IMG/VR virus record: IMGVR_UViG_2541047897_000006
DNA: 9,974 nt
From: a virus
Lineage: Duplodnaviria; Heunggongvirae; Uroviricota; Caudoviricetes
Direction: 5' to 3' (one strand)
Made by a program: the position numbers and the translations under genes
Notes under the pieces: generated by a model
Told to the model about the DNA's origin: nothing
Databases searched by the model: none
The model's input: only the letters and a program-made list of their open reading frames with translations
Part shown: piece after piece, positions 1 through 8,941 of the stretch
Numbering within the stretch: position 1 is the stretch's first letter
Layout of the letters: every line of letters begins with the position of its first letter

Positions 1-237
1 ATGATGTCTATAAATGAAGTTGTTAAACAGGACTGGCACCCCGCGCATGTTGTCGCGGCGGTGCATGTAAAAGGTTTTACTTTACGCTCTCTGTCCATTG
101 AAGCCGGTTTAAACCAGGATTCTTTAAAGAATGCCCTGTACCGCAAATGCCCAAAATATGAGCGCATTATTGCCAATGCTATTGGCGTTGCGCCGGAGGA
201 GATCTGGCCCAGCCGTTACGCTCGTAAGGTGGCATAA
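1..237 (+). CDS. ner: Ner-like DNA-binding early regulator (Ner/Nlp family), D108-type
   Basis: 78-aa ORF with motifs DWHPAHVVAA, IIANAIGV and EEIWPSRY, which are characteristic of Mu/D108 Ner and E. coli Nlp. It sits immediately upstream of transposase A, and its TAA stop at 235-237 is followed by the A start at 240. The ORF begins at window position 1, so its RBS and true start cannot be checked. Confidence 0.85.
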   Translation: MMSINEVVKQDWHPAHVVAAVHVKGFTLRSLSIEAGLNQDSLKNALYRKCPKYERIIANAIGVAPEEIWPSRYARKVA

Positions 238-239
238 AA

Positions 240-2333
240 ATGTTTGTGTCAGTTAATGAGCTTGTAGGGCTACCAGGTATGCCGGGAACTGCGCAAGGGG
301 TGCGGTATTCCATAAGGAAACTGGCCTCATCTGAGCATTTCAGGCGCAAACGTGCGGGTTCAAAAACCATTGAATACAGCATCGACTGCCTCCCTCCGGT
401 TACACAACGGGCGTTACGTGAGCGTCATGTAGCTCAACTGATGGCAACCGCCCCGCAGGAGATAACTACCCAGCCTCCTGTAAAGCGTGAACGCAAACAA
501 AATGTTGTACAGCCTGTTGAGGCATATCGCGGTTCGCCACAATTGGTAGAAGAACGTCTGAATGCTCTTACGGAAAATCAACGTAAAGTTGCAGAAGCGC
601 GCATTGCTCTTGTCTGTGAAGTTCTACGAATTAGCCAGGAGCCGGGATTCAGTTGTGCCAGCGCTATACGTTTTATTGTGTCGCGGTTAGCGCAGGGTAA
701 CTTGGAAGAACGTCTGGAATCTTTGGTCATTACTGCTAATGCCCGTAAAGGGAAAGAGCGAACTCTGAGCGCAATTACGCTCAAACGTTGGATAGCTGCG
801 TTTAACAAAGCACAGAATGCCGCAGAACGACTGCTGTTACTGGCACCAGGAAAGCGCGACGAAATAAAACCGGAAGAAATTAGCTGGCTGCCTGAATTTC
901 TGGCGCAGTATCGTCAGGCTAACGGCAGGCCTATGTCAGAAGCCTACGAGGATTTTGTTGCTGATTGGCAGCGTCGCCATGCGGACGAACCATACATGCT
1001 GGAGGTGATGCCTTCCTATGATGTTGTCCGGTATGCCATGAAAAAACTGCCGGAAGTGGTGAAACAAAAAGGGCGCGTTACCGGCAGTGAATACCGTCAG
1101 CTTGAAGGATTCACCCGCCGCGACTGGACAGCTATGCCGGTGAATTATGTCTGGATTGGTGACGGTCACGGTATGAAGCTGAAATGTGCACATCCTGTTC
1201 ACGGGCGTCCATTTTCACCGGAAGTTACGTTTGTGATCGACGGTGGAACCCGGTTTGTGGTTGGCTGGAGTCTTGATCTTGCAGAGAACGTGTTCGCTGT
1301 TGCCGGGGCGATACAACACGGCATTCGCAATCACGGAAAACCATTCCTGTATTACTCGGATAATGGTTCCGGTGAAACGGCAGATATGCTGGATAAAGAG
1401 ATCGTCGGGATTCTGCCCCGCCTGGGGATTAACCACCCTACCGGTATTGCGGGAAATCCGCAGGGACGCGGCATTATTGAGCGCCTGAACCGGACGTTAC
1501 CGATGCGTATAGCAAGGAGGTATCGCACCTATTTCGGCAAGGGGGCTGACCGGGAATCGTTGCGAGTACTTAATCGTGATCTGCGTTCAGCGTTTAATGC
1601 CCTGCAACAGGACAAGCCACTGAGCGCCCGTCAGAAAGCCGCAATGCGCGAGCTGCCGTCCTGGTCAGAACTGATTGAGGCTATCCGTGAGGGGGTGGAG
1701 TGGTACAACAACCGCCCACATTCTGAATTGCCGATGAAACCAAATGGAAAACATTACAGCCCGGCAGAGTTCAGAAAAAAACGCTTAGCGGAAGAAGACA
1801 CTGAAATTGAGTGGCTGAGTGATATTGAGCTGCGTGACATGTTCCGCCCGATGGTGGAGCGTCCGGTAAGACGCTGCGAAATCCAGTGGCTGAACAATAT
1901 TTACTACGCGCCAGAGCTGCGTGATGAACATGGCCGCAAGGTACTTATCAGCTATGACATTCATGATGCCGAGCGAATTACGGTACGCCGTAAGGACGGT
2001 AGCTTTATCTGTGAGGCGATATGGAACGGCAATAAACGCGCAGCCTTTCCTGTTACGGCTGAATATCACAAACAACAGCAGCGTATTAAAGGAATGCGCA
2101 AGCGTGCTGAGGAAAAAATACGTGATGCTGAGGATGAAGGTATTCAGGTTATTGAACAAAAAACGACAGAACCCTGGCTGGATAATGTTTATCGCCCTGT
2201 TGGTAATGTGGTGACCGTTCAGCCGTTGAGGTGTGAGGAAGTGCATGATGATGAATACGAAACTGAGCGTGATGAATATCTGAATCATTCGCTGGATATT
2301 CTGGAACAGAACAGACGTAAAAAAGCCATTTAA
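240..2333 (+). CDS. A: DDE transposase A (MuA family)
   Basis: 697-aa ORF with RBS AAGGTGG 7 nt upstream. Candidate DDE residues lie in YVWIGDGHGM, LYYSDNGSGE and RGIIERLNR. The C-terminus ends in RRKKAI, which matches the MuA ClpX-recognition tail as I recall it. The first ~60 aa are homologous to, but diverged from, the Mu A N-terminus I remember, consistent with a D108-type enhancer/end-binding domain. Confidence 0.95.
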   Translation: MFVSVNELVGLPGMPGTAQGVRYSIRKLASSEHFRRKRAGSKTIEYSIDCLPPVTQRALRERHVAQLMATAPQEITTQPPVKRERKQNVVQPVEAYRGSPQLVEERLNALTENQRKVAEARIALVCEVLRISQEPGFSCASAIRFIVSRLAQGNLEERLESLVITANARKGKERTLSAITLKRWIAAFNKAQNAAERLLLLAPGKRDEIKPEEISWLPEFLAQYRQANGRPMSEAYEDFVADWQRRHADEPYMLEVMPSYDVVRYAMKKLPEVVKQKGRVTGSEYRQLEGFTRRDWTAMPVNYVWIGDGHGMKLKCAHPVHGRPFSPEVTFVIDGGTRFVVGWSLDLAENVFAVAGAIQHGIRNHGKPFLYYSDNGSGETADMLDKEIVGILPRLGINHPTGIAGNPQGRGIIERLNRTLPMRIARRYRTYFGKGADRESLRVLNRDLRSAFNALQQDKPLSARQKAAMRELPSWSELIEAIREGVEWYNNRPHSELPMKPNGKHYSPAEFRKKRLAEEDTEIEWLSDIELRDMFRPMVERPVRRCEIQWLNNIYYAPELRDEHGRKVLISYDIHDAERITVRRKDGSFICEAIWNGNKRAAFPVTAEYHKQQQRIKGMRKRAEEKIRDAEDEGIQVIEQKTTEPWLDNVYRPVGNVVTVQPLRCEEVHDDEYETERDEYLNHSLDILEQNRRKKAI

Positions 2334-2371: not shown

Positions 2372-3310
2372 ATGAATATTTCCGATATTCGCGCAGGACT
2401 GCGCACGCTTGTAGAAAATGAAGAAACCACCTTTAAACAAATTGCTCTTGAGAGCGGACTTTCTACCGGAACTATCAGTAGTTTTATCAATGATAAGTAC
2501 AACGGGGATAACGAGCGTGTTTCACAAATTCTGCAACGCTGGCTGGAAAAATATCATGCAGTTGCAGAACTACCTGAACCGCCCCGCTTTGTGGAAACGC
2601 AGACGGTAAAACAAATCTGGACAAGTATGCGTTTTGCCAGCCTGACTGAAAGTATTGCTGTTGTATGTGGCAATCCTGGTGTGGGCAAAACCGAAGCGGC
2701 CCGTGAATATCGCCGCACCAATAACAACGTCTGGATGATCACCATTACGCCATCCTGTGCCAGCGTTCTGGAATGTCTTACTGAACTGGCGTTTGAGCTG
2801 GGAATGAATGACGCACCACGCCGTAAAGGGCCACTCTCTCGCGCCCTGCGACGTCGCCTTGAAGGTACACAGGGGCTGGTTATCATCGACGAAGCTGATC
2901 ATCTTGGTGCCGAAGTTCTGGAAGAACTCCGCCTGTTACAGGAATCAACCCGCACTGGCCTTGTGCTGATGGGAAATCACCGGGTTTATTCAAATATGAC
3001 GGGGGGTAACAGAACGGTTGAATTTGCCCGTCTGTTTTCCCGTATTGCAAAGCGCACTGCAATTAATAAAACCAAAAAAGCCGATGTAAAAGCTATTGCG
3101 GATGCCTGGCAGATTAACGGCGAAAATGAACTGGAGTTATTACAGCAGATTGCGCAGAAACCAGGTGCGCTTCGCATTCTGAATCATTCACTTCGCCTTG
3201 CCGCCATGACGGCTCACGGTAAAGGTGAGCGTGTTAACGAAGATTATCTGCGTCAGGCTTTCCGTGAATTAGACCTGGACGTTGATATTTCAACGCTGCT
3301 GCGTAATTAA
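2372..3310 (+). CDS. B: Transposition ATPase / target-DNA activator B (MuB family, AAA+)
   Basis: 312-aa ORF, the same length as Mu B. Walker A motif GNPGVGKT and Walker B motif LVIIDEADHL are present. It lies directly downstream of A with a GAGG RBS. Confidence 0.95.
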   Translation: MNISDIRAGLRTLVENEETTFKQIALESGLSTGTISSFINDKYNGDNERVSQILQRWLEKYHAVAELPEPPRFVETQTVKQIWTSMRFASLTESIAVVCGNPGVGKTEAAREYRRTNNNVWMITITPSCASVLECLTELAFELGMNDAPRRKGPLSRALRRRLEGTQGLVIIDEADHLGAEVLEELRLLQESTRTGLVLMGNHRVYSNMTGGNRTVEFARLFSRIAKRTAINKTKKADVKAIADAWQINGENELELLQQIAQKPGALRILNHSLRLAAMTAHGKGERVNEDYLRQAFRELDLDVDISTLLRN

Positions 3311-3325
3311 GAAGGAGAAGAAATT

Positions 3326-3553
3326 ATGATGGCCCGAAATATAAAAATGGCAACGGATGCGCAGAACTGGTTACAGGCGCGCGGGAGTCATGTAAATGAA
3401 TCATATCTCGGCGTGGCGCGTCCGATTCTTGAAATCACTTACCCACCGGTGGAACTGGTAAAAAGCGCGGTCAGAATTATGGAGCATAAGTCCGGGGTGG
3501 CCCGTTCTGTATGGACGGCCCGTCTTAATGGTTGCCAGATTATCTGGAGATAA
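3326..3553 (+). CDS. kil: Small early protein, probable Kil (host-killing) by position
   Basis: 75-aa ORF with a strong AAGGAG RBS 8 nt upstream. It is the first gene after B, which is where kil (about 74 aa) maps in Mu. The sequence has no diagnostic motif, so the assignment is positional only. Confidence 0.45.
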
Positions 3554-4826: not shown

Positions 4827-5351
4827 ATGGCTAAACCAGCAAAACGTATCAAAAGTGCCGCAGCGGCTTATGTGCCACAAAACCGCGATGCGGTGATTAC
4901 CGATATTAAACGCATCGGGGATTTACAGCGCGAAGCATCACGTCTGGAAACGGAAATGAATGATGCCATCGCGGAAATTACGGAGAAATTTGCAGCCCGG
5001 ATTGCACCGATTAAAACCGATATTGAAACCCTTTCAAAAGGCGTTCAGGGATGGTGTGAAGCGAACCGCGACGAACTGACAAACGGCGGCAAAGTGAAGA
5101 CGGCGAATCTTGTCACCGGTGATGTATCGTGGCGGGTCCGTCCACCCTCAGTAAGTATTCGTGGTATGGATGCAGTGATGGAAACGCTGGAGCGTCTTGG
5201 CCTGCAACGCTTTATTCGCACGAAGCAGGAAATCAACAAGGAGGCGATTTTACTGGAACCAAAAGCCGTCGCAGGTGTTGCCGGAATTACGGTTAAATCA
5301 GGCATTGAAGATTTTTCTATTATTCCGTTTGAACAGGAAGCCGGTATTTAA
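4827..5351 (+). CDS. gam: Host-nuclease inhibitor Gam (Mu Gam, Ku-like DNA-end-binding protein)
   Basis: 174-aa ORF with an AGGAG RBS 9 nt upstream. The protein (MAKPAKRIKSAAAAYVPQNRDAVITDIKR...) matches phage Mu Gam as I recall it, in both length and sequence. Confidence 0.93.
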   Translation: MAKPAKRIKSAAAAYVPQNRDAVITDIKRIGDLQREASRLETEMNDAIAEITEKFAARIAPIKTDIETLSKGVQGWCEANRDELTNGGKVKTANLVTGDVSWRVRPPSVSIRGMDAVMETLERLGLQRFIRTKQEINKEAILLEPKAVAGVAGITVKSGIEDFSIIPFEQEAGI

Positions 5352-5448
5352 TACCACCATTAATATTTAATTAATTCACATTCGTTTAATTATGGCGCGA
5401 TGCGTCAGGGGACTACTCGCGCCTTAATCAGAACCGGAGAGAATGAAA

Positions 5449-5997
5449 ATGACAGCATGTGCTTATTTTAAACTGAGTGACACAGCCGCTAACGCTTATA
5501 CGATTCGCTGGCTGAAAGACGTTTCTGTTAAGCGTGGTGAGATTATTGCGTCATTACAGCAATCAGTGAAAGCAAGTGGTGTGTCTTTGTCTGGTGACAA
5601 AGGGCCTGAAAGGGTTACGCGTGTCTGGTTTAACCGTTTACCACCGGAAGGATGGGAGATTAAATCAAGGACACTTTTCATTGGTGATATTCAGTTATGG
5701 GGCGCAATGCCGGATATGACAATACCGGCAGGCCGTGAGTACGGGAAGCTCATCCGGGACTGTGAAAATCAGCTCGAAAAACACCCGGATTTTCCGGGCT
5801 GGCTGTGCAATGAACTTAACGTGGCTACCGACGTTGACCTGTTTGACATCAGGTCCGTGTGGAAAATGCACCACAGCCGTGACGGATTCAGCATTTTGTT
5901 TGCAGTGTACCTTCTGGCTGGCGAAGTGAAGGGACCGGTTCCCGCCGAATGCCAGCGCATTAAACATTCTGAATTTGTGGCGCTGACGGAGGAATAA
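5449..5997 (+). CDS. Hypothetical early protein (about 182 aa)
   Basis: The frame opens at ATG 5443, but the GGAGAG RBS at 5436-5441 is correctly spaced (7 nt) only for the in-frame ATG at 5449. It is the first gene after the 91-bp gam-distal intergenic gap. I recognise no motif. Confidence 0.65.
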   Translation: MTACAYFKLSDTAANAYTIRWLKDVSVKRGEIIASLQQSVKASGVSLSGDKGPERVTRVWFNRLPPEGWEIKSRTLFIGDIQLWGAMPDMTIPAGREYGKLIRDCENQLEKHPDFPGWLCNELNVATDVDLFDIRSVWKMHHSRDGFSILFAVYLLAGEVKGPVPAECQRIKHSEFVALTEE

Positions 5998-6000
5998 CCG

Positions 6001-6531
6001 GTGATTGATGCAAAAGTTCTGAATGGTGTCAGCACATTATTACGGGCTTACGGGCGTCTGACCTGCGGGGTTCTGGCTGAAAAAATGCAGATGCCATCCT
6101 CCGCAATGGTGTACTTCCTGCGTGATGCGGTTGATGCCGGAATGCTGACTGAACTTAATGGTTTTTACGACGTACCGCGTCCCCGTACAGAGCAGCCTGT
6201 AAGACGAAACGCAACTGAGCAGCCTGCTGTTGATGATGCCGCGTGGTGTTCCTTCCGCCGCTCATTGCCCTGGCTAGAAGGCAATGCCATTCCGGCGCTG
6301 GCAAAAGAATTTGCAACAGGCGTACTGACCTGCGAGTCGGTTTACATCGTTGCGGAAGTGGATGACGAAATGTGCAAACAGGGAATGCCCCGTTTTGTGA
6401 TGGCTTATATCGATATCCGGCTGGGGCGTTTTATTTGTGGTTCCAGTAGCTGGAATATCACCGACCACGTCCTGCGCTATCTCATTCTTGATTTCTCAAC
6501 GGCTCCCGAAGCAGCACAGGAGGTGGCGTGA
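6001..6531 (+). CDS. Hypothetical early protein (176 aa), GTG start, possible N-terminal winged-helix
   Basis: GTG at 6001 is preceded by GGAGGA at 5988-5993 and is the only in-frame start near the 5' end. The N-terminal segment STLLRAYGRLTCGVLAEKMQMPSSAMVYFLRDAVDAGML resembles a winged-helix DNA-binding fold (weak inference). The stop overlaps the next start. Confidence 0.6.
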   Translation: MIDAKVLNGVSTLLRAYGRLTCGVLAEKMQMPSSAMVYFLRDAVDAGMLTELNGFYDVPRPRTEQPVRRNATEQPAVDDAAWCSFRRSLPWLEGNAIPALAKEFATGVLTCESVYIVAEVDDEMCKQGMPRFVMAYIDIRLGRFICGSSSWNITDHVLRYLILDFSTAPEAAQEVA

Positions 6532-7061
6532 TGTTTTTTAAAACGTCAAATCCCGCAGCACTGCTGGCGTGGGAGCAGTTTATGGCGGACTGCCTGAAAC
6601 TACGCGAAGAAGCCCGCCATCTTGATAAGGTTCTGGGTTGTGGTTGCCGGTCAGTATTCAGCACAGGTATTGGTGGGCGTTATTTTCATGGTGTGAACTT
6701 TCCGGGGAATGAGCGCCCTTTCTCGCGGGAGCTGTGGACCGTACAACGGCCCGCATCAGGTAACAGTTGCAGGCCCAGAACTTCGCGGATACCTGTTCAT
6801 CTCAGGGAGCAGGCAAAAGAGCTGGCGAAAATATGGCAGGAGAATATTCCGGTCACTTATGCCCGCACAGATGCTCTTTTACCCGCACTGGGACTGGATT
6901 TCAGCGCAACAATATTCGGACCTCTCCAGTGGTTCCGTGTTGGTGATGTGATTTACGTCATGACGGGGATGACACCCGCACAAGGCCGCATGACTGAAAT
7001 CCTTTCTGACGAATTTATCCGGGCGCAAAAACAGGCGGAGGTAAACAATGGAAAACAATGA
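6531..7061 (+). CDS. Hypothetical early protein (about 176 aa)
   Basis: AGGAGG RBS at 6518-6523. ATG 6531 shares a nucleotide with the upstream TGA stop (TGATG coupling); the ORF track starts one codon earlier at GTG 6528. I recognise no motif. Confidence 0.65.
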   Translation: MFFKTSNPAALLAWEQFMADCLKLREEARHLDKVLGCGCRSVFSTGIGGRYFHGVNFPGNERPFSRELWTVQRPASGNSCRPRTSRIPVHLREQAKELAKIWQENIPVTYARTDALLPALGLDFSATIFGPLQWFRVGDVIYVMTGMTPAQGRMTEILSDEFIRAQKQAEVNNGKQ

Positions 7062-7230
7062 AACATCGTATTCGTGGCTGGGGGTATTCACCACGGTGAA
7101 ACAGGAATGCCAGACCTGCGGTAATGAATCCCCTGAATATCTGAAAGAGTGCCCTCATTGTGGCGGGCAGAAATGCAACCACTGCGATATGGGCGATGAC
7201 ACGGCGTGCATGAATTGTGAAGGTGAATAA
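7048..7230 (+). CDS. Cys-rich mini-protein with four CxxC motifs (putative zinc ribbon)
   Basis: 60-aa ORF with a GGAGG RBS 7 nt upstream. It contains CQTC, CPHC, CNHC and CMNC. Its 5' end overlaps the upstream ORF by 14 nt in another frame. Confidence 0.6.
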   Translation: MENNETSYSWLGVFTTVKQECQTCGNESPEYLKECPHCGGQKCNHCDMGDDTACMNCEGE

Positions 7231-7231
7231 T

Positions 7232-7534
7232 ATGAATAATGAAACTAAATTTACTCCCCTTAATATTGATAACGTCATGGCTGAAAAAGGGATGCTGGAA
7301 CGTGTTCGCGCTATCGTTGAATATGGTATTAAGCATGAACTCACCGCCAGAGAAGTCCGTGACATTATCAACCGCGAAATGAATCGTCTGGAAACAGTAG
7401 TGGCACTGCAAAATGAAACAGCCCGCGAGGAGTACATCCGCCGCAGGCTGGGGTTATCAGACCAGGATATTGTTACTGACGCTCATGTGTTTGAGGCTTT
7501 TGAGATCCGTCAGCATCTGGGCCTTACGAACTGA
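7232..7534 (+). CDS. Hypothetical early protein (about 100 aa)
   Basis: ATG 7232 is preceded by GAAGGTGA with 5-nt spacing; the ORF track alternative is GTG 7217. It starts 1 nt after the upstream stop. I recognise no motif. Confidence 0.6.
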   Translation: MNNETKFTPLNIDNVMAEKGMLERVRAIVEYGIKHELTAREVRDIINREMNRLETVVALQNETAREEYIRRRLGLSDQDIVTDAHVFEAFEIRQHLGLTN

Positions 7535-7545
7535 TGTGTAAATTC

Positions 7546-7567
7546 AGGCGGTGTTGCAGCACCGCCT
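7546..7567 (+). promoter_or_regulatory. GC-rich hairpin in the 51-bp gap upstream of gemA (possible attenuator or RNA stability/processing element)
   Basis: AGGCGGTG-ttgcag-CACCGCCT forms an 8-bp stem with a 6-nt loop, followed by CTTTCC and then the gemA RBS GGAGGT. The T-tract is weak, so it is not a classic strong intrinsic terminator. Confidence 0.3.
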
Positions 7568-7585: not shown

Positions 7586-8137
7586 ATGAATCGCACATCC
7601 CTGATTAAATTAATCCATGTCGCCCGTCGGGAGCTACAACTCGACGACGACACTTACCGCGCTTTTCTGATGCAGAAAACGGGCAAAATCAGTTGCCGCG
7701 AGCTGACGGTTACGCAACTGGAACAGGTGCTCAATGCCATGAAAGAACGCGGCTTTAAGAAGCAGAATAAACACCCACGCCGTCGGTTTAAGGGGCATGT
7801 CACGCCCCGTGAGAAGGTGTATAAAATCTGGCAGCAGATGGCAGAAGACGGTTTTATTACCGATGGTGGTGATGTGGCGCTGGACAGATATGTTCAGCGC
7901 CTGACAGCGAAACGTAATGGCGGACAGGGTGTTTCCACGCTGGCGTGGTGCCACGGAGAATCGTTGCAGGTTGTGCTTGAAACACTCAAGCAGTGGCACA
8001 TCCGCTGTATTCGTGAAGCCTTTTCCCGTCACGGGCTTCCGTTGCCGGTCAGTCCGTCCGGGCGTGAACTGCGCGGCTATGATGCCATGACGGCGGCTTA
8101 TGCCCATGCCAGAAAGACACGGAGGATGGCACAATGA
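7586..8137 (+). CDS. gemA: GemA-like protein (Mu gp16 family)
   Basis: 183-aa ORF with a GGAGGT RBS. It lies immediately upstream of mor and overlaps it (ATGA), as gemA does in Mu. The call rests on position and size; I cannot search the sequence. Confidence 0.75.
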   Translation: MNRTSLIKLIHVARRELQLDDDTYRAFLMQKTGKISCRELTVTQLEQVLNAMKERGFKKQNKHPRRRFKGHVTPREKVYKIWQQMAEDGFITDGGDVALDRYVQRLTAKRNGGQGVSTLAWCHGESLQVVLETLKQWHIRCIREAFSRHGLPLPVSPSGRELRGYDAMTAAYAHARKTRRMAQ

Positions 8138-8523
8138 CGGAAGATTTATTTGGTGATTTGCAGGATGACACCATTCTGGCACATCTTGACAATCCCGCAG
8201 AGGATACGTCACGCTTTCCGGCACTGCTGGCGGAGCTGAACGATTTACTGCGCGGGGAATTGTCCCGGCTGGGTGTTGATCCTGCCCATTCACTGGAGAT
8301 TGTTGTGGCTATCTGTAAGCATCTGGGCGGTGGTCAGGTCTACATTCCACGCGGTCAGGTTCTGGACTCGCTGATTCGGGATTTGCGTATCTGGAATGAT
8401 TTTAACGGTCGCAACGTCAGCGAACTGACCACCCGTTATGGTGTCACTTTCAACACGGTTTACAAGGCTATTCGCCGGATGCGACGGCTGAAATACCGCC
8501 AGTACCAGCCCTCACTTCTGTAA
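8134..8523 (+). CDS. mor: Middle operon regulator Mor (transcription activator of Pm)
   Basis: 129-aa ORF with a GGAGGA RBS 7 nt upstream. The protein (MTEDLFGDLQDDTILAHLDNPAED...) matches Mu Mor as I recall it. Its C-terminal half is a paralogue of the C protein downstream: compare GGGQVYIPRG...IWNDFNGRNVSEL with GGRQFYIPCG...LYCQFNGRNMEEL. Confidence 0.9.
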   Translation: MTEDLFGDLQDDTILAHLDNPAEDTSRFPALLAELNDLLRGELSRLGVDPAHSLEIVVAICKHLGGGQVYIPRGQVLDSLIRDLRIWNDFNGRNVSELTTRYGVTFNTVYKAIRRMRRLKYRQYQPSLL

Positions 8524-8528
8524 ACAGT

Positions 8529-8553
8529 AAAGCCGGTTAATCCGGCTTTTTTT
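8529..8553 (+). terminator. Rho-independent terminator at the end of the early operon
   Basis: AAAGCCGG-ttaat-CCGGCTTT stem-loop followed by a run of seven T residues, 6 nt after the mor stop codon. Confidence 0.8.
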
Positions 8554-8559
8554 ACGTCC

Positions 8560-8640
8560 TCAATATCCTGTGATGAATAACCGTACCGGGGGAAATCATC
8601 ATGGGTAAAGGCTGGAATGCATCCTTTCATCTTGGCAGAC
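8560..8640 (+). promoter_or_regulatory. Probable middle promoter Pm with Mor-binding dyad (position approximate)
   Basis: An imperfect dyad, TGATGAATAA...N...AAATCATCA, spans about 8571-8601 just downstream of the early terminator. In Mu, Mor binds a dyad upstream of Pm, which drives C. I cannot place the -10 element or the +1 from sequence. Confidence 0.4.
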
Positions 8641-8941
8641 GTGAGCGGCTGTGTCAGGAGGTTTTGCACCGTGTCGCCGGTGGGCCACGGCCTGCGCCCC
8701 GCGACTATACCGGTCATGATGGCACCCACGGAAGTTATTACATGAAAGGATGGCAGTCGGTTGATATGCCGGAAATTCTTCACCACTGTCAACGTTATAA
8801 GGAAAAATATTGTGTACAGAAAATTCAGTGATGAATGTTTCGGGCCATTCGCGCTGCTCACCGCAATAAAAGTGATCGCCCTGGTGGTTCTGATAAGCAT
8901 CAGTGCCGTGGTGTCTTTCTGTCTGTTAACCGGGGGAAAAT

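What the first reader, a model, noticed from the sequence alone, without database searches (positions are those of the whole stretch)
5449..7534. Five translationally coupled ORFs between gam and the gemA hairpin form a distinct sub-module of unknown function
The stop/start junctions are 3 nt apart (5997/6001), a TGATG overlap (6531), a 14-nt overlap (7048) and a 1-nt gap (7230/7232). That implies coupled translation and fixed stoichiometry, as in a multi-protein system. None has a recognisable catalytic motif. One is a possible winged-helix protein and one is a zinc ribbon. The module is bracketed by the structured gap after gam and the hairpin before gemA. This is the segment most likely to hold an undescribed function, although Mu genetics places several unassigned non-essential functions here.
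Basis: inference. Interest (0 to 1): 0.5.

Follow-up and report, generated by a model that had tools for sequence, protein, structure and literature searches.

The report
Mu early accessory genes, not a cassette
The five tightly packed genes are real, but four are the long-known uncharacterised genes gp11-gp14 of phage Mu and the fifth is a DUF5420 gene also found in phage SfMu, and related phages carry them in many different combinations, so they are a variable stretch of separately exchangeable accessory genes and not one five-protein machine.

Summary
Five ORFs lie at 5443/5449-7534 with the stated junctions, each has its own Shine-Dalgarno sequence, and all are under purifying selection.

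The window is a Mu-type phage early operon. ORF2-5 are Mu gp11, gp12, gp13 and gp14 (85-99% aa identity). ORF1 is a DUF5420-type gene like SfMu gp11.

- 44 Gam-anchored relatives show 10 different presence/absence patterns of the five genes.
- Only 3 of the 44 have all five, and 6 have none.
- The closest phage overall, Yersinia vB_YpM_5, lacks ORF1 and carries two other genes here.
- Tight or overlapping junctions also occur elsewhere in the operon and persist whichever gene follows. A run of four is expected by chance (P=0.41).

Some linkage remains. gp12 always follows gp11, gp12 is followed by gp13 in the E. coli clade, and ORF1 is always followed by gp11 in Mu-likes.

New points:
- ORF1/DUF5420 and gp12 are distant paralogues (hhalign E=1.6e-5; 0 of 100 shuffles reach the score).
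- gp12 gives a confident model with no solved structural relative.
- gp11 has an N-terminal winged helix.
- The variable stretch starts at a post-gam element that is conserved in 47 of 47 loci.

Function stays unknown. The most likely reading is independent early host-interference genes.

The parts
5352..5442 (+). Conserved non-coding element after gam: an AT-rich stretch, then the stem-loop GGCGCGA...TCGCGCC at 5394-5423. It is the left boundary of the variable stretch.
   Evidence: The motif is present at a fixed offset (41-42 nt after the gam stop) in 47 of 47 loci, whichever gene follows. RNA fold -20.1 kcal/mol, z = -1.8. No T-run follows and there is no Rfam match.
5449..5997 (+). ORF1, 182-184 aa (alternative start at 5443). 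A DUF5420-type protein, the counterpart of SfMu gp11. Absent from Mu and D108.
   Evidence: phrog_2260, E=2.4e-38. 65% identical to SfMu gp11, which is annotated DUF5420. Members of its 90% cluster are named DUF5420 by NCBI. The profile search finds only 15 clusters, several carrying PF17457. dN/dS 0.30-0.67. Present in 10 of 44 close relatives.
6001..6531 (+). Homologue of Mu gp11 (formerly E10-E12), 176 aa, GTG start. N-terminal winged helix, disordered Pro/Arg linker, C-terminal Gp11_C beta domain.
6531..7061 (+). Homologue of Mu gp12 (E13), 176 aa, basic (pI 9.2). A distant paralogue of ORF1/DUF5420.
7048..7230 (+). Homologue of Mu gp13 (E14), 60 aa, acidic. Four CxxC pairs, consistent with a double zinc ribbon.
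   Evidence: 93% identical to Mu gp13. phrog_5584. Only sub-threshold zinc-ribbon and DnaJ-CXXCXGXG Pfam hits. In L061, L064, L068 and L094 the same 57 residues form the C-terminus of a larger protein with an unrelated N-terminal domain (phrog_6418).
7232..7534 (+). Homologue of Mu gp14 (E15), 100 aa, acidic.
   Evidence: 99% identical to Mu gp14. phrog_6075. Relatives carry alleles of 37-99% identity to the window's protein (D108 37%, L054/L070 38%, L053/L058 44%, L077 and L090-L093 70-72%), or a different about 102-aa gene at the same junction.
7547..7566 (+). Hairpin GGCGGTGT-TGCA-GCACCGCC, 20 nt upstream of the gemA ATG. It is the right boundary of the stretch in Mu-type gemA alleles.
   Evidence: Conserved in the window, Mu, L069 and L072. 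Found 20-22 nt before gemA in 26 of 47 loci. -18 kcal/mol, z = -2.3. It lies inside the region that the Mu record AF083977 annotates as 'semi-early promoter'. It does not qualify as a terminator in the scan.

Best explanation
The block is the variable accessory part of the semi-essential early region of a Mu-type transposable phage. It is a string of small genes co-transcribed in the long early (Pe) operon. Each gene is a separately exchangeable unit, and together they do not form a five-protein system.

Shown here:
- Four of the genes are Mu gp11-gp14 and the fifth is a DUF5420 gene.
- Their content turns over by insertion, deletion and replacement at gene boundaries. The turnover happens between a post-gam element that is conserved in every locus examined and, in Mu-type alleles, a conserved hairpin before gemA.
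- The short or overlapping stop/start junctions are kept whichever gene comes next.

Inferred from this: the junctions keep ribosomes and transcription flowing through a compact polycistronic message towards gemA and mor. They do not set protein ratios.

A looser core does exist. gp11 (winged helix plus Gp11_C domain) is the common element. It is accompanied optionally by one to three members of a single small superfamily (ORF1/DUF5420 upstream, gp12 downstream) and by the zinc-ribbon protein gp13.

Inferred function, about 45% likely: the products are early host-interference or counter-defence proteins that bind host or DNA-associated targets, acting separately or in small subsets.
For: Identity and context:
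- Mu, SfMu and D108 annotations and tblastn identities.
- The literature describes the semi-essential region as poorly conserved small genes of unknown function (PMC3820752; PMC8705779; PMC4406740).

Mosaicism:
- 26 gene arrangements in 47 intervals, and 10 presence patterns of the five genes in 44.
- The closest overall relative, vB_YpM_5 (95.6% identity over 94% of the window), still differs here: no ORF1, plus a 102-aa gene and reverse-strand gp15.
- L053 is a clean deletion of gp12 that keeps the gp13 overlap start.
- In L078, L080 and L092 a different small ORF overlaps the gp11 stop by 8 nt.
- gp13 is followed after 1 nt by either gp14 or the 102-aa gene, and both begin with the same first codons.

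Boundaries: the post-gam motif is present in 47 of 47 loci and the pre-gemA hairpin in 26 of 47.

Junctions are not special: 8 of 15 are tight and P(run of 4 or more) = 0.41.

Core: divergent Salmonella and E. coli Mu-likes keep DUF5420-like(s)-gp11-gp12 with the 1-nt gp11/gp12 overlap, but have no gp13 or gp14.

Paralogy of ORF1 and gp12. This is consistent with the gp12 model's best viral fold matches, which are unnamed proteins of 182 and 194 aa.

Hints towards host interference:
- Early operon position next to the RecBCD antagonist Gam.
- A distant DUF5420 gene sits beside ERF-YqaJ-SSB in a lambdoid-type prophage.
- gp11, gp13 and gp14 are acidic.
- ORF1 and gp14 have higher dN/dS than gam or gemA.
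- No match to known defence-system models.
Against: - When present, the five genes always keep the same order.
- gp12 was never seen without gp11 directly upstream (19 of 19).
- gp12 was never seen without gp13 downstream in the E. coli clade.
- ORF1 was never seen without gp11 in Mu-likes (11 of 11). Some physical or functional partnerships are therefore likely.
- The loci come from prophage and metagenome collections of unknown redundancy, and some arrangements may be decaying prophages.
- No experiment or homology assigns any biochemical activity, so the host-interference function rests on context only.
- The classical Mu functions arm and cim, which map somewhere in this region, could instead account for some of these genes (own knowledge; listed in PMC4553209).
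Confidence: 0.7

Rival explanations
1. One reading: the five proteins are subunits of one multi-protein system, and translational coupling fixes their stoichiometry.
For: Four consecutive junctions of 3 nt or less, or overlapping. The gene order is constant when the genes are present. All five occur together in L072, L089 and, with a disrupted gp12, SfMu.
Against: All five are present in only 3 of 44 close relatives, and 10 presence patterns occur. Mu itself, a fully viable phage, lacks ORF1. Many relatives carry gp11 alone. DUF5420 occurs without any of the others in unrelated prophages. Each gene has its own SD. Equally tight junctions occur with other partners and elsewhere in the operon.
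Confidence: 0.05
2. A smaller real system: gp11 is a hub that works together with DUF5420/gp12-superfamily paralogues (ORF1, gp12), with gp13 as a zinc-ribbon partner of gp12. gp14 is unrelated cargo.
For: gp12 is always preceded by gp11, with a conserved 1-nt overlap even at 55-65% identity. ORF1 is always followed by gp11 in Mu-likes. The Jaccard index for gp12-gp13 is 0.73, the highest of all pairs. ORF1 and gp12 are paralogues that flank gp11. The gp13 domain occurs fused to another protein, so it behaves as a partner module.
Against: 15 of 38 gp11-bearing loci have neither ORF1 nor gp12. Distant DUF5420 genes lack a neighbouring Gp11_C protein. Salmonella Mu-likes have gp11-gp12 without gp13. 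L053 has gp13 without gp12. No interaction data exist.
Confidence: 0.2
3. The genes encode the classical, unassigned Mu semi-essential functions that boost transposition and replication or modulate immunity (arm, cim), acting on Mu DNA and not on host defences.
For: These functions are listed for the B-C interval without gene assignment (PMC4553209). gp11 has a nucleic-acid-binding type fold. The genes are co-expressed with A, B and gam in the early operon.
Against: Functions that help the conserved transposition machinery should be conserved with it, yet the genes are absent from most Mu-like phages outside the Enterobacteriaceae and from many close relatives. The gp11 recognition helix is acidic, not basic (sequence).
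Confidence: 0.1

Closest known systems
Bacteriophage Mu genes gp11, gp12, gp13 and gp14 (formerly E10-12, E13, E14, E15) in the semi-essential early region
   Same: Same position between gam and gemA, same order and same junction types. 85%, 98%, 93% and 99% amino-acid identity.
   Different: The window has an extra DUF5420 gene before gp11. It lacks the 226-nt segment with reverse-strand gp15/Mu_54 between gp14 and gemA.
Shigella phage SfMu gp11 (DUF5420 family protein) and the IMG/VR contig IMGVR_UViG_2850808358_000012 (L072)
   Same: A DUF5420 gene directly after the post-gam element and 3 nt before gp11. L072 has all five genes at 91-99% identity.
   Different: SfMu's copy is only 65% identical. 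SfMu has an additional 102-aa gene between gp13 and gp14, and its gp12 is disrupted or unannotated. L072 retains the gp15 segment.
Variable accessory ('moron' or hotspot) stretches of temperate-phage early operons, for example the lambda pL region downstream of the recombination genes
   Same: Small, non-essential, fast-turnover genes co-transcribed with recombination and anti-nuclease functions. Exchange happens at gene boundaries between conserved flanks. One distant DUF5420 gene lies beside ERF-YqaJ-SSB in such a prophage.
   Different: No sequence homology to characterised lambda accessory genes was found. This comparison rests on organisation and is from general knowledge, not a test.

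Membership tests
Mu semi-essential early region genes gp11-gp14 | Sequence homology to Mu gp11, gp12, gp13 and gp14 | tested here: met
   tblastn 85%, 98%, 93% and 99% identity at full coverage. PHROG families with E from 1e-101 to 5e-42.
Mu semi-essential early region genes gp11-gp14 | Position and order between gam and gemA on the early-operon strand | tested here: met
   gam 4827-5351 (PF07352), gemA 7586-8137 (PF06252), mor 8134-8523 (PF08765). Same order as the Mu annotation.
Pfam PF25754 Gp11_C | Score above the gathering cut-off | tested here: met
   130.7 bits against a cut-off of 27, residues 90-166.
Pfam PF26885 Phage_Mu_Gp12 | Match to the family model | tested here: inconclusive
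   The model is absent from the local Pfam copy, so ORF3 gave no hit. All 55 homologues found, down to 54% identity, carry a precomputed PF26885 hit.
Pfam PF17457 DUF5420 | Match of ORF1 to the family model | tested here: inconclusive
   The direct scan gave no hit even at E<=10. However, NCBI names cluster members DUF5420. ORF1 is 24% identical (E=4e-7) to a PF17457-carrying Salmonella protein and 36% identical to its tandem paralogue. The ORF1 profile retrieves PF17457 proteins.
Operon-encoded multi-protein system of fixed composition | Components co-occur across related genomes | tested here: not met
   10 presence patterns. All five present in 3 of 44 loci. Pairwise Jaccard indices range from 0.13 to 0.73.
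Operon-encoded multi-protein system of fixed composition | Stop/start overlap or near-abutment specific to the component genes | tested here: not met
   The junctions are tight, but so are 4 other junctions of the operon. P(run of 4 or more) = 0.41. The same junctions serve other downstream genes.
Operon-encoded multi-protein system of fixed composition | Physical interaction of the products | not testable with these tools
   No multimer prediction or experimental data were available.
Winged helix-turn-helix fold (gp11 N-terminus) | Three helices plus a beta-hairpin wing, superposable on known domains | tested here: met
Zinc ribbon (gp13) | Paired CxxC knuckles; match to zinc-ribbon models | tested here: inconclusive
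   Four CxxC pairs are present (C21/24, C35/38, C43/46, C53/56) and conserved in relatives. The Pfam hits Zn_ribbon_LapB (19 bits) and DnaJ_CXXCXGXG (18.7 bits) are below their cut-offs.
Lar restriction-alleviation family (considered for gp13) | Score above the family cut-off | tested here: not met
   TIGR03655: 14.7 bits against a cut-off of 39.6. PF14354: 7.3 bits against 28.6.
Known anti-phage defence systems (PADLOC) | Match to any component model | tested here: not met
   No hits for ORF1, gp11, gp12 or gp14. Only noise (E>0.05) for gp13.

The most novel reading that the evidence does not exclude
gp11 and the DUF5420/gp12 superfamily, a tiny phage-restricted family with a confidently predicted fold that has no solved relative, form an undescribed host-interference or counter-defence module. 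In this reading the paralogue number (0-3 copies around gp11) and the optional zinc-ribbon partner gp13 tune target specificity in an arms race.
Probability: 0.15. Interest if true: 0.55.

Novelty: already known. Interest (0 to 1): 0.27.

Why it matters
The Mu semi-essential region has been known for decades to hold unassigned functions, so this locus is not a discovery in itself.

What the analysis adds is practical. The five genes should not be studied as one unit. The natural variants already amount to a set of deletions and swaps, which suggests the minimal sets to test:
- gp11 alone
- gp11 with gp12 and gp13
- ORF1 with gp11

Linking DUF5420 to the Mu gp12 family merges two 'unknown' families into one. 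It also points to a fold with no solved relative, which would be a reasonable target for structure determination and for anti-defence screens.

Tried and rejected
- **Family scans.** Pfam, NCBIfam, PHROGs and PADLOC scans of all five proteins gave only Gp11_C, unknown-function PHROGs and sub-threshold zinc-ribbon noise.
- **PDB sequence search.** Searches with ORF1, gp11 and gp12 found nothing meaningful.
- **Rfam.** A scan of the whole window found nothing.
- **Promoter and terminator scan.** Counts in the region were no higher than in shuffles. Neither flanking hairpin qualifies as an intrinsic terminator.
- **First paralogy test.** hhalign with a shallow ORF1 alignment gave E=0.047, but 10 of 200 shuffles scored as well, so it was rejected as evidence. 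Only the broader DUF5420 alignment gave a significant result.
- **Programmed frameshift joining gp12 to gp13.** Considered and rejected. gp13 is in the +1 frame, there is no canonical slippery site, and gp13 has its own GGAGG and ATG. The 231/252-aa 'fusion' in other phages has an unrelated N-terminal domain.
- **Literature.** Searches for functional work on these genes found none. One search was wasted on mouse 'Mup' genes.
- **afdb50 fold library.** It was unavailable, so the identity of the two best viral fold matches (A0A7G8Z7V2, A0A6G5YHC7) could not be established.
- **Single-protein locus scans.** Scans with gp11 and ORF1 only re-found the Gam-anchored contigs.
Full report
**What the window is.** The 9974-base window is the left (early) end of a Mu-type transposable phage. 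In order it holds ner, the transposase A, B, several small early genes, gam (4827-5351, PF07352), the five ORFs of the finding, gemA (7586-8137, PF06252), mor (8134-8523, PF08765), C and the start of the endolysin gene. Megablast of 5300-7700 hits Mu, D108, SfMu and the Yersinia Mu-like phages at 89-95% identity, but only SfMu covers the whole stretch. Over the whole window the closest phage is Yersinia vB_YpM_5/6, with 94% coverage and 95.6% identity.

**Check of the observation.** The five ORFs and their junctions are exactly as described:
- TAA 5995-5997 followed by GTG 6001.
- TGATG at 6529-6533.
- A 14-nt overlap at 7048-7061.
- TAA ending at 7230 followed by ATG 7232.

ORF1 can start at 5443 or 5449, and the GGAG at 5437-5440 favours 5449. 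Each ORF has its own Shine-Dalgarno sequence. Pairwise dN/dS against relatives at several divergence levels is 0.08-0.67 for all five, so they are genuine protein-coding genes. ORF1 (0.30-0.67) and gp14 (0.19-0.42) evolve faster than gam (0.14 or less).

The two flanking stem-loops exist, at 5394-5423 and 7547-7566. They are only modestly more stable than shuffled sequence (z = -1.8 and -2.3), and neither scores as an intrinsic terminator.

**Identity of the genes.** ORF2-5 are the Mu genes gp11 (formerly E10-E12), gp12 (E13), gp13 (E14) and gp14 (E15), at 85%, 98%, 93% and 99% amino-acid identity. All are annotated 'hypothetical protein' in Mu, D108 and SfMu. ORF1 has no counterpart in Mu or D108. 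It is 65% identical to SfMu gp11, which RefSeq calls a DUF5420 family protein. The SfMu paper already notes that its ORF11 and ORF14 are absent from Mu and D108 (PMC4406740). The literature at hand describes the Mu semi-essential region as largely uncharacterised and poorly conserved (PMC3820752; PMC8705779; PMC4553209). I found no functional study of any of these five genes.

**Do the five travel as a cassette?** I anchored on Gam, which is neutral with respect to the five genes. This fetched 47 loci from GTDB genomes and 80 from IMG/VR, which I searched with all window proteins.

Among 44 non-redundant-by-record complete gam-gemA intervals with Gam at 85% identity or more, the presence counts are:

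| Gene | Loci with it (of 44) |
|---|---|
| ORF1 | 10 |
| gp11 | 38 |
| gp12 | 16 |
| gp13 | 22 |
| gp14 | 21 |

- Ten different presence patterns occur. All five genes are present in 3 loci, gp11 alone in 9, and none in 6.
- The interval length ranges from 1.0 to 2.8 kb.
- When the other genes found in the interval are also clustered, 47 intervals give 26 arrangements. These other genes include a 100-131-aa family (102 aa in SfMu), a small ORF after gp14, a reverse-strand DUF2513-like gene and several others.
- vB_YpM_5 is near-identical to the window elsewhere, yet here it has gp11-gp12-gp13, a 102-aa gene, gp14 and reverse-strand gp15, and no ORF1.
- None of the 5426 complete E. coli genomes carries the window's arrangement at more than 83% coverage.
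- In Mu-likes with Gam below 80% identity, only a gp11-like protein is detectable, in 5 loci. No DUF5420 or gp12 is detectable by HMM search.

**Are the junctions special?** Within this operon, 8 of 15 junctions are 3 nt or less or overlap, including ner/A, gp8/gp9 and gemA/mor. A run of four or more arises in 41% of random orderings. More telling, the junctions are kept with different partners:
- In L078, L080 and L092 a different small ORF overlaps the gp11 stop by 8 nt.
- In L053 gp12 has been deleted cleanly, so that gp11 runs into the last codons of gp12 and the overlapping gp13 start is preserved.
- gp13 is followed after 1 nt by either gp14 or the 102-aa gene, and both begin with the same first codons.

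Tight packing is therefore a property of the operon and of exchange at gene boundaries. It is not evidence of stoichiometric coupling among these five.

**What is a unit?** The left boundary is a non-coding element of about 90 nt after gam. Its stem-loop motif is present at a fixed offset in 47 of 47 loci, whichever gene follows. The hairpin 20-22 nt before gemA is present in 26 of 47 loci (those that also carry the 95-100% gemA allele) and lies within what the Mu record calls a semi-early promoter.

Inside it, some links survive:
- gp12 is always directly preceded by gp11 (19 of 19).
- In the E. coli clade gp12 is always followed by gp13. This pair has the highest pairwise Jaccard index, 0.73.
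- ORF1 is always followed by gp11 (11 of 11).
- Divergent Salmonella and E. coli Mu-like prophages keep the order 'one or two DUF5420-like genes, gp11, gp12', with the same 1-nt gp11/gp12 overlap. Two of them have DUF3164 in place of Gam. None has gp13 or gp14.

**The proteins.**
- **gp13.** This is a 60-residue acidic protein with four CxxC pairs. Zinc-ribbon and DnaJ-type Pfam models match only below their cut-offs, and the Lar match is noise. In four loci the same domain is the C-terminus of a larger protein with an unrelated N-terminal domain that also exists on its own, so gp13 behaves as a portable module.
- **gp14.** This is a 100-residue acidic protein with several divergent alleles.
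- No protein matches a PADLOC defence model.

**ORF1 and gp12 are paralogues.** ORF1, its Salmonella relatives and bona fide PF17457 proteins share a C-terminal ...IK[HK]SE[FY][IV]ALTEE motif and an N-terminal YFK motif. gp12 shows FFK at the N-terminus and ...EILSDEF... near the C-terminus.

A first profile comparison with a shallow ORF1 alignment was not significant: E=0.047, and 10 of 200 column shuffles scored as well. An exhaustive profile search then showed the DUF5420 superfamily to be very small, with 15 clusters at E of 1e-3 or less among 1.84 billion representatives. With these diverse members aligned, hhalign against the gp12 profile gave 79% probability, E=1.6e-5 and 157 co-linear columns. 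Column-shuffled controls averaged 13.3 +/- 2.7 with a maximum of 20.3, against the real score of 38.7 (0 of 100 shuffles reached it).

The best viral fold matches of the gp12 model are unnamed proteins of 194 and 182 residues at 22-23% identity and TM 0.75-0.81. That is the size of DUF5420 proteins, but I could not establish what they are. Distant DUF5420 genes lie in non-Mu contexts without any Gp11_C neighbour. One sits directly after ERF-YqaJ-SSB in an integrase-bearing prophage, and the others lie among small unknown early-type ORFs.

**Most likely explanation.** The block is the variable accessory portion of the Mu semi-essential early region: independently exchangeable small genes riding in the early operon. 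The compact junctions maintain translation and transcription through to gemA and mor (inferred). A loose core consists of gp11 with optional DUF5420/gp12-superfamily paralogues and the gp13 zinc ribbon.

The function is not established. Several features point the same way:
- early expression;
- the position next to the RecBCD antagonist Gam, and next to recombination genes in another phage type;
- rapid turnover and paralogue expansion;
- acidic small products;
- relatively relaxed constraint on ORF1 and gp14.

On that basis I consider host-interference or counter-defence roles the most likely (about 45%). Auxiliary roles in Mu replication or immunity (the classical arm and cim functions) come next.

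**Rivals.** The five-subunit system is effectively refuted (5%). A smaller gp11-centred system remains plausible (20%).

**Verdict.** The feature is already known as Mu gp11-gp14 plus a DUF5420 gene, in a region known to be variable and of unknown function. Interest is low to moderate. The useful by-products are the DUF5420-gp12 relationship, the gp12 fold with no solved relative, and the map of natural gene combinations.

Noticed in passing
window 5352-5442: The intergenic element after gam is present in 47 of 47 Mu-like loci at a fixed offset, regardless of the downstream gene. It consists of an AT-rich stretch followed by the stem-loop GGCGCGA-N16-TCGCGCC at 5394-5423. It is not a terminator and has no Rfam match. 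It may be an RNA processing or stabilising site, or a recombination anchor.
   Followed up: partly
window 7534-7547, compared with Mu 7958-8183 (L001 about 3185-3410): The window and L069 lack a 226-nt segment that Mu and L072 carry between gp14 and gemA. That segment holds the reverse-strand gene gp15 (with its own SD), the small ORF Mu_54 and the 5' half of the region annotated as 'semi-early promoter'. The indel is flanked by TGAT microhomology.
   Followed up: partly
window 1-2333: ner and the transposase A gene are not Mu-like at the DNA level: Mu and SfMu align only from position 2243 onward. The 697-aa transposase is 99% identical to that of Yersinia phages vB_YpM_5/6, and the next-best matches are 79% (Mu-like phage inserts in two Stx-converting phages), 57-58% (vB_YpM_Tongde, a Klebsiella phage) and 47% or less for the remaining listed phages. 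The DNA match to Mu resumes about 90 nt before the end of A, which suggests that the last ~30 codons and B are Mu-type; the protein tail itself was not compared. This is a mosaic joint inside the transposition module.
   Followed up: partly
window 8524-8941: Mu has E18, E19 and gp20 between mor and C. The window has only 418 nt there. They include a strong terminator-like hairpin right after mor (8529-8549, followed by TTTTT) and a 76-aa + strand ORF (8601-8831), the same length as SfMu gp19.
   Followed up: no
L078, L080, L092 and L077, directly after gp11 (e.g. L078 about 6357 onward): A small ORF starts 5 nt before the gp11 stop (ATGATTAAG...). It encodes MIKSIGFVLLVGTCG..., a signal-peptide or lipoprotein-like N-terminus. 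It is a possible membrane or exclusion protein occupying the gp12 position.
   Followed up: no
L061, L064, L068 and L094 (e.g. L064 7090-7848 and 8123-8539 on the - strand): The gp13 zinc-ribbon sequence is fused to the C-terminus of a protein whose N-terminal domain also exists alone in other loci (129-140 aa). The same loci carry a reverse-strand 138-aa DUF2513-like gene just upstream of gemA.
   Followed up: partly
L002 (SfMu NC_027382) 2733-3246: The SfMu reference has an unannotated gap where tblastn finds a gp12 homologue (96% identity over 88% of its length). The SfMu paper states that Mu gp12 has no SfMu homologue. This is probably a disrupted or mis-annotated gene.
   Followed up: no
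L134 and L136 (Salmonella Mu-like prophages): Gam is replaced at the same position by a DUF3164 protein (212 aa), while the DUF5420-gp11-gp12 order downstream is kept. L134 has two tandem DUF5420-type paralogues (183 and 192 aa).
   Followed up: partly
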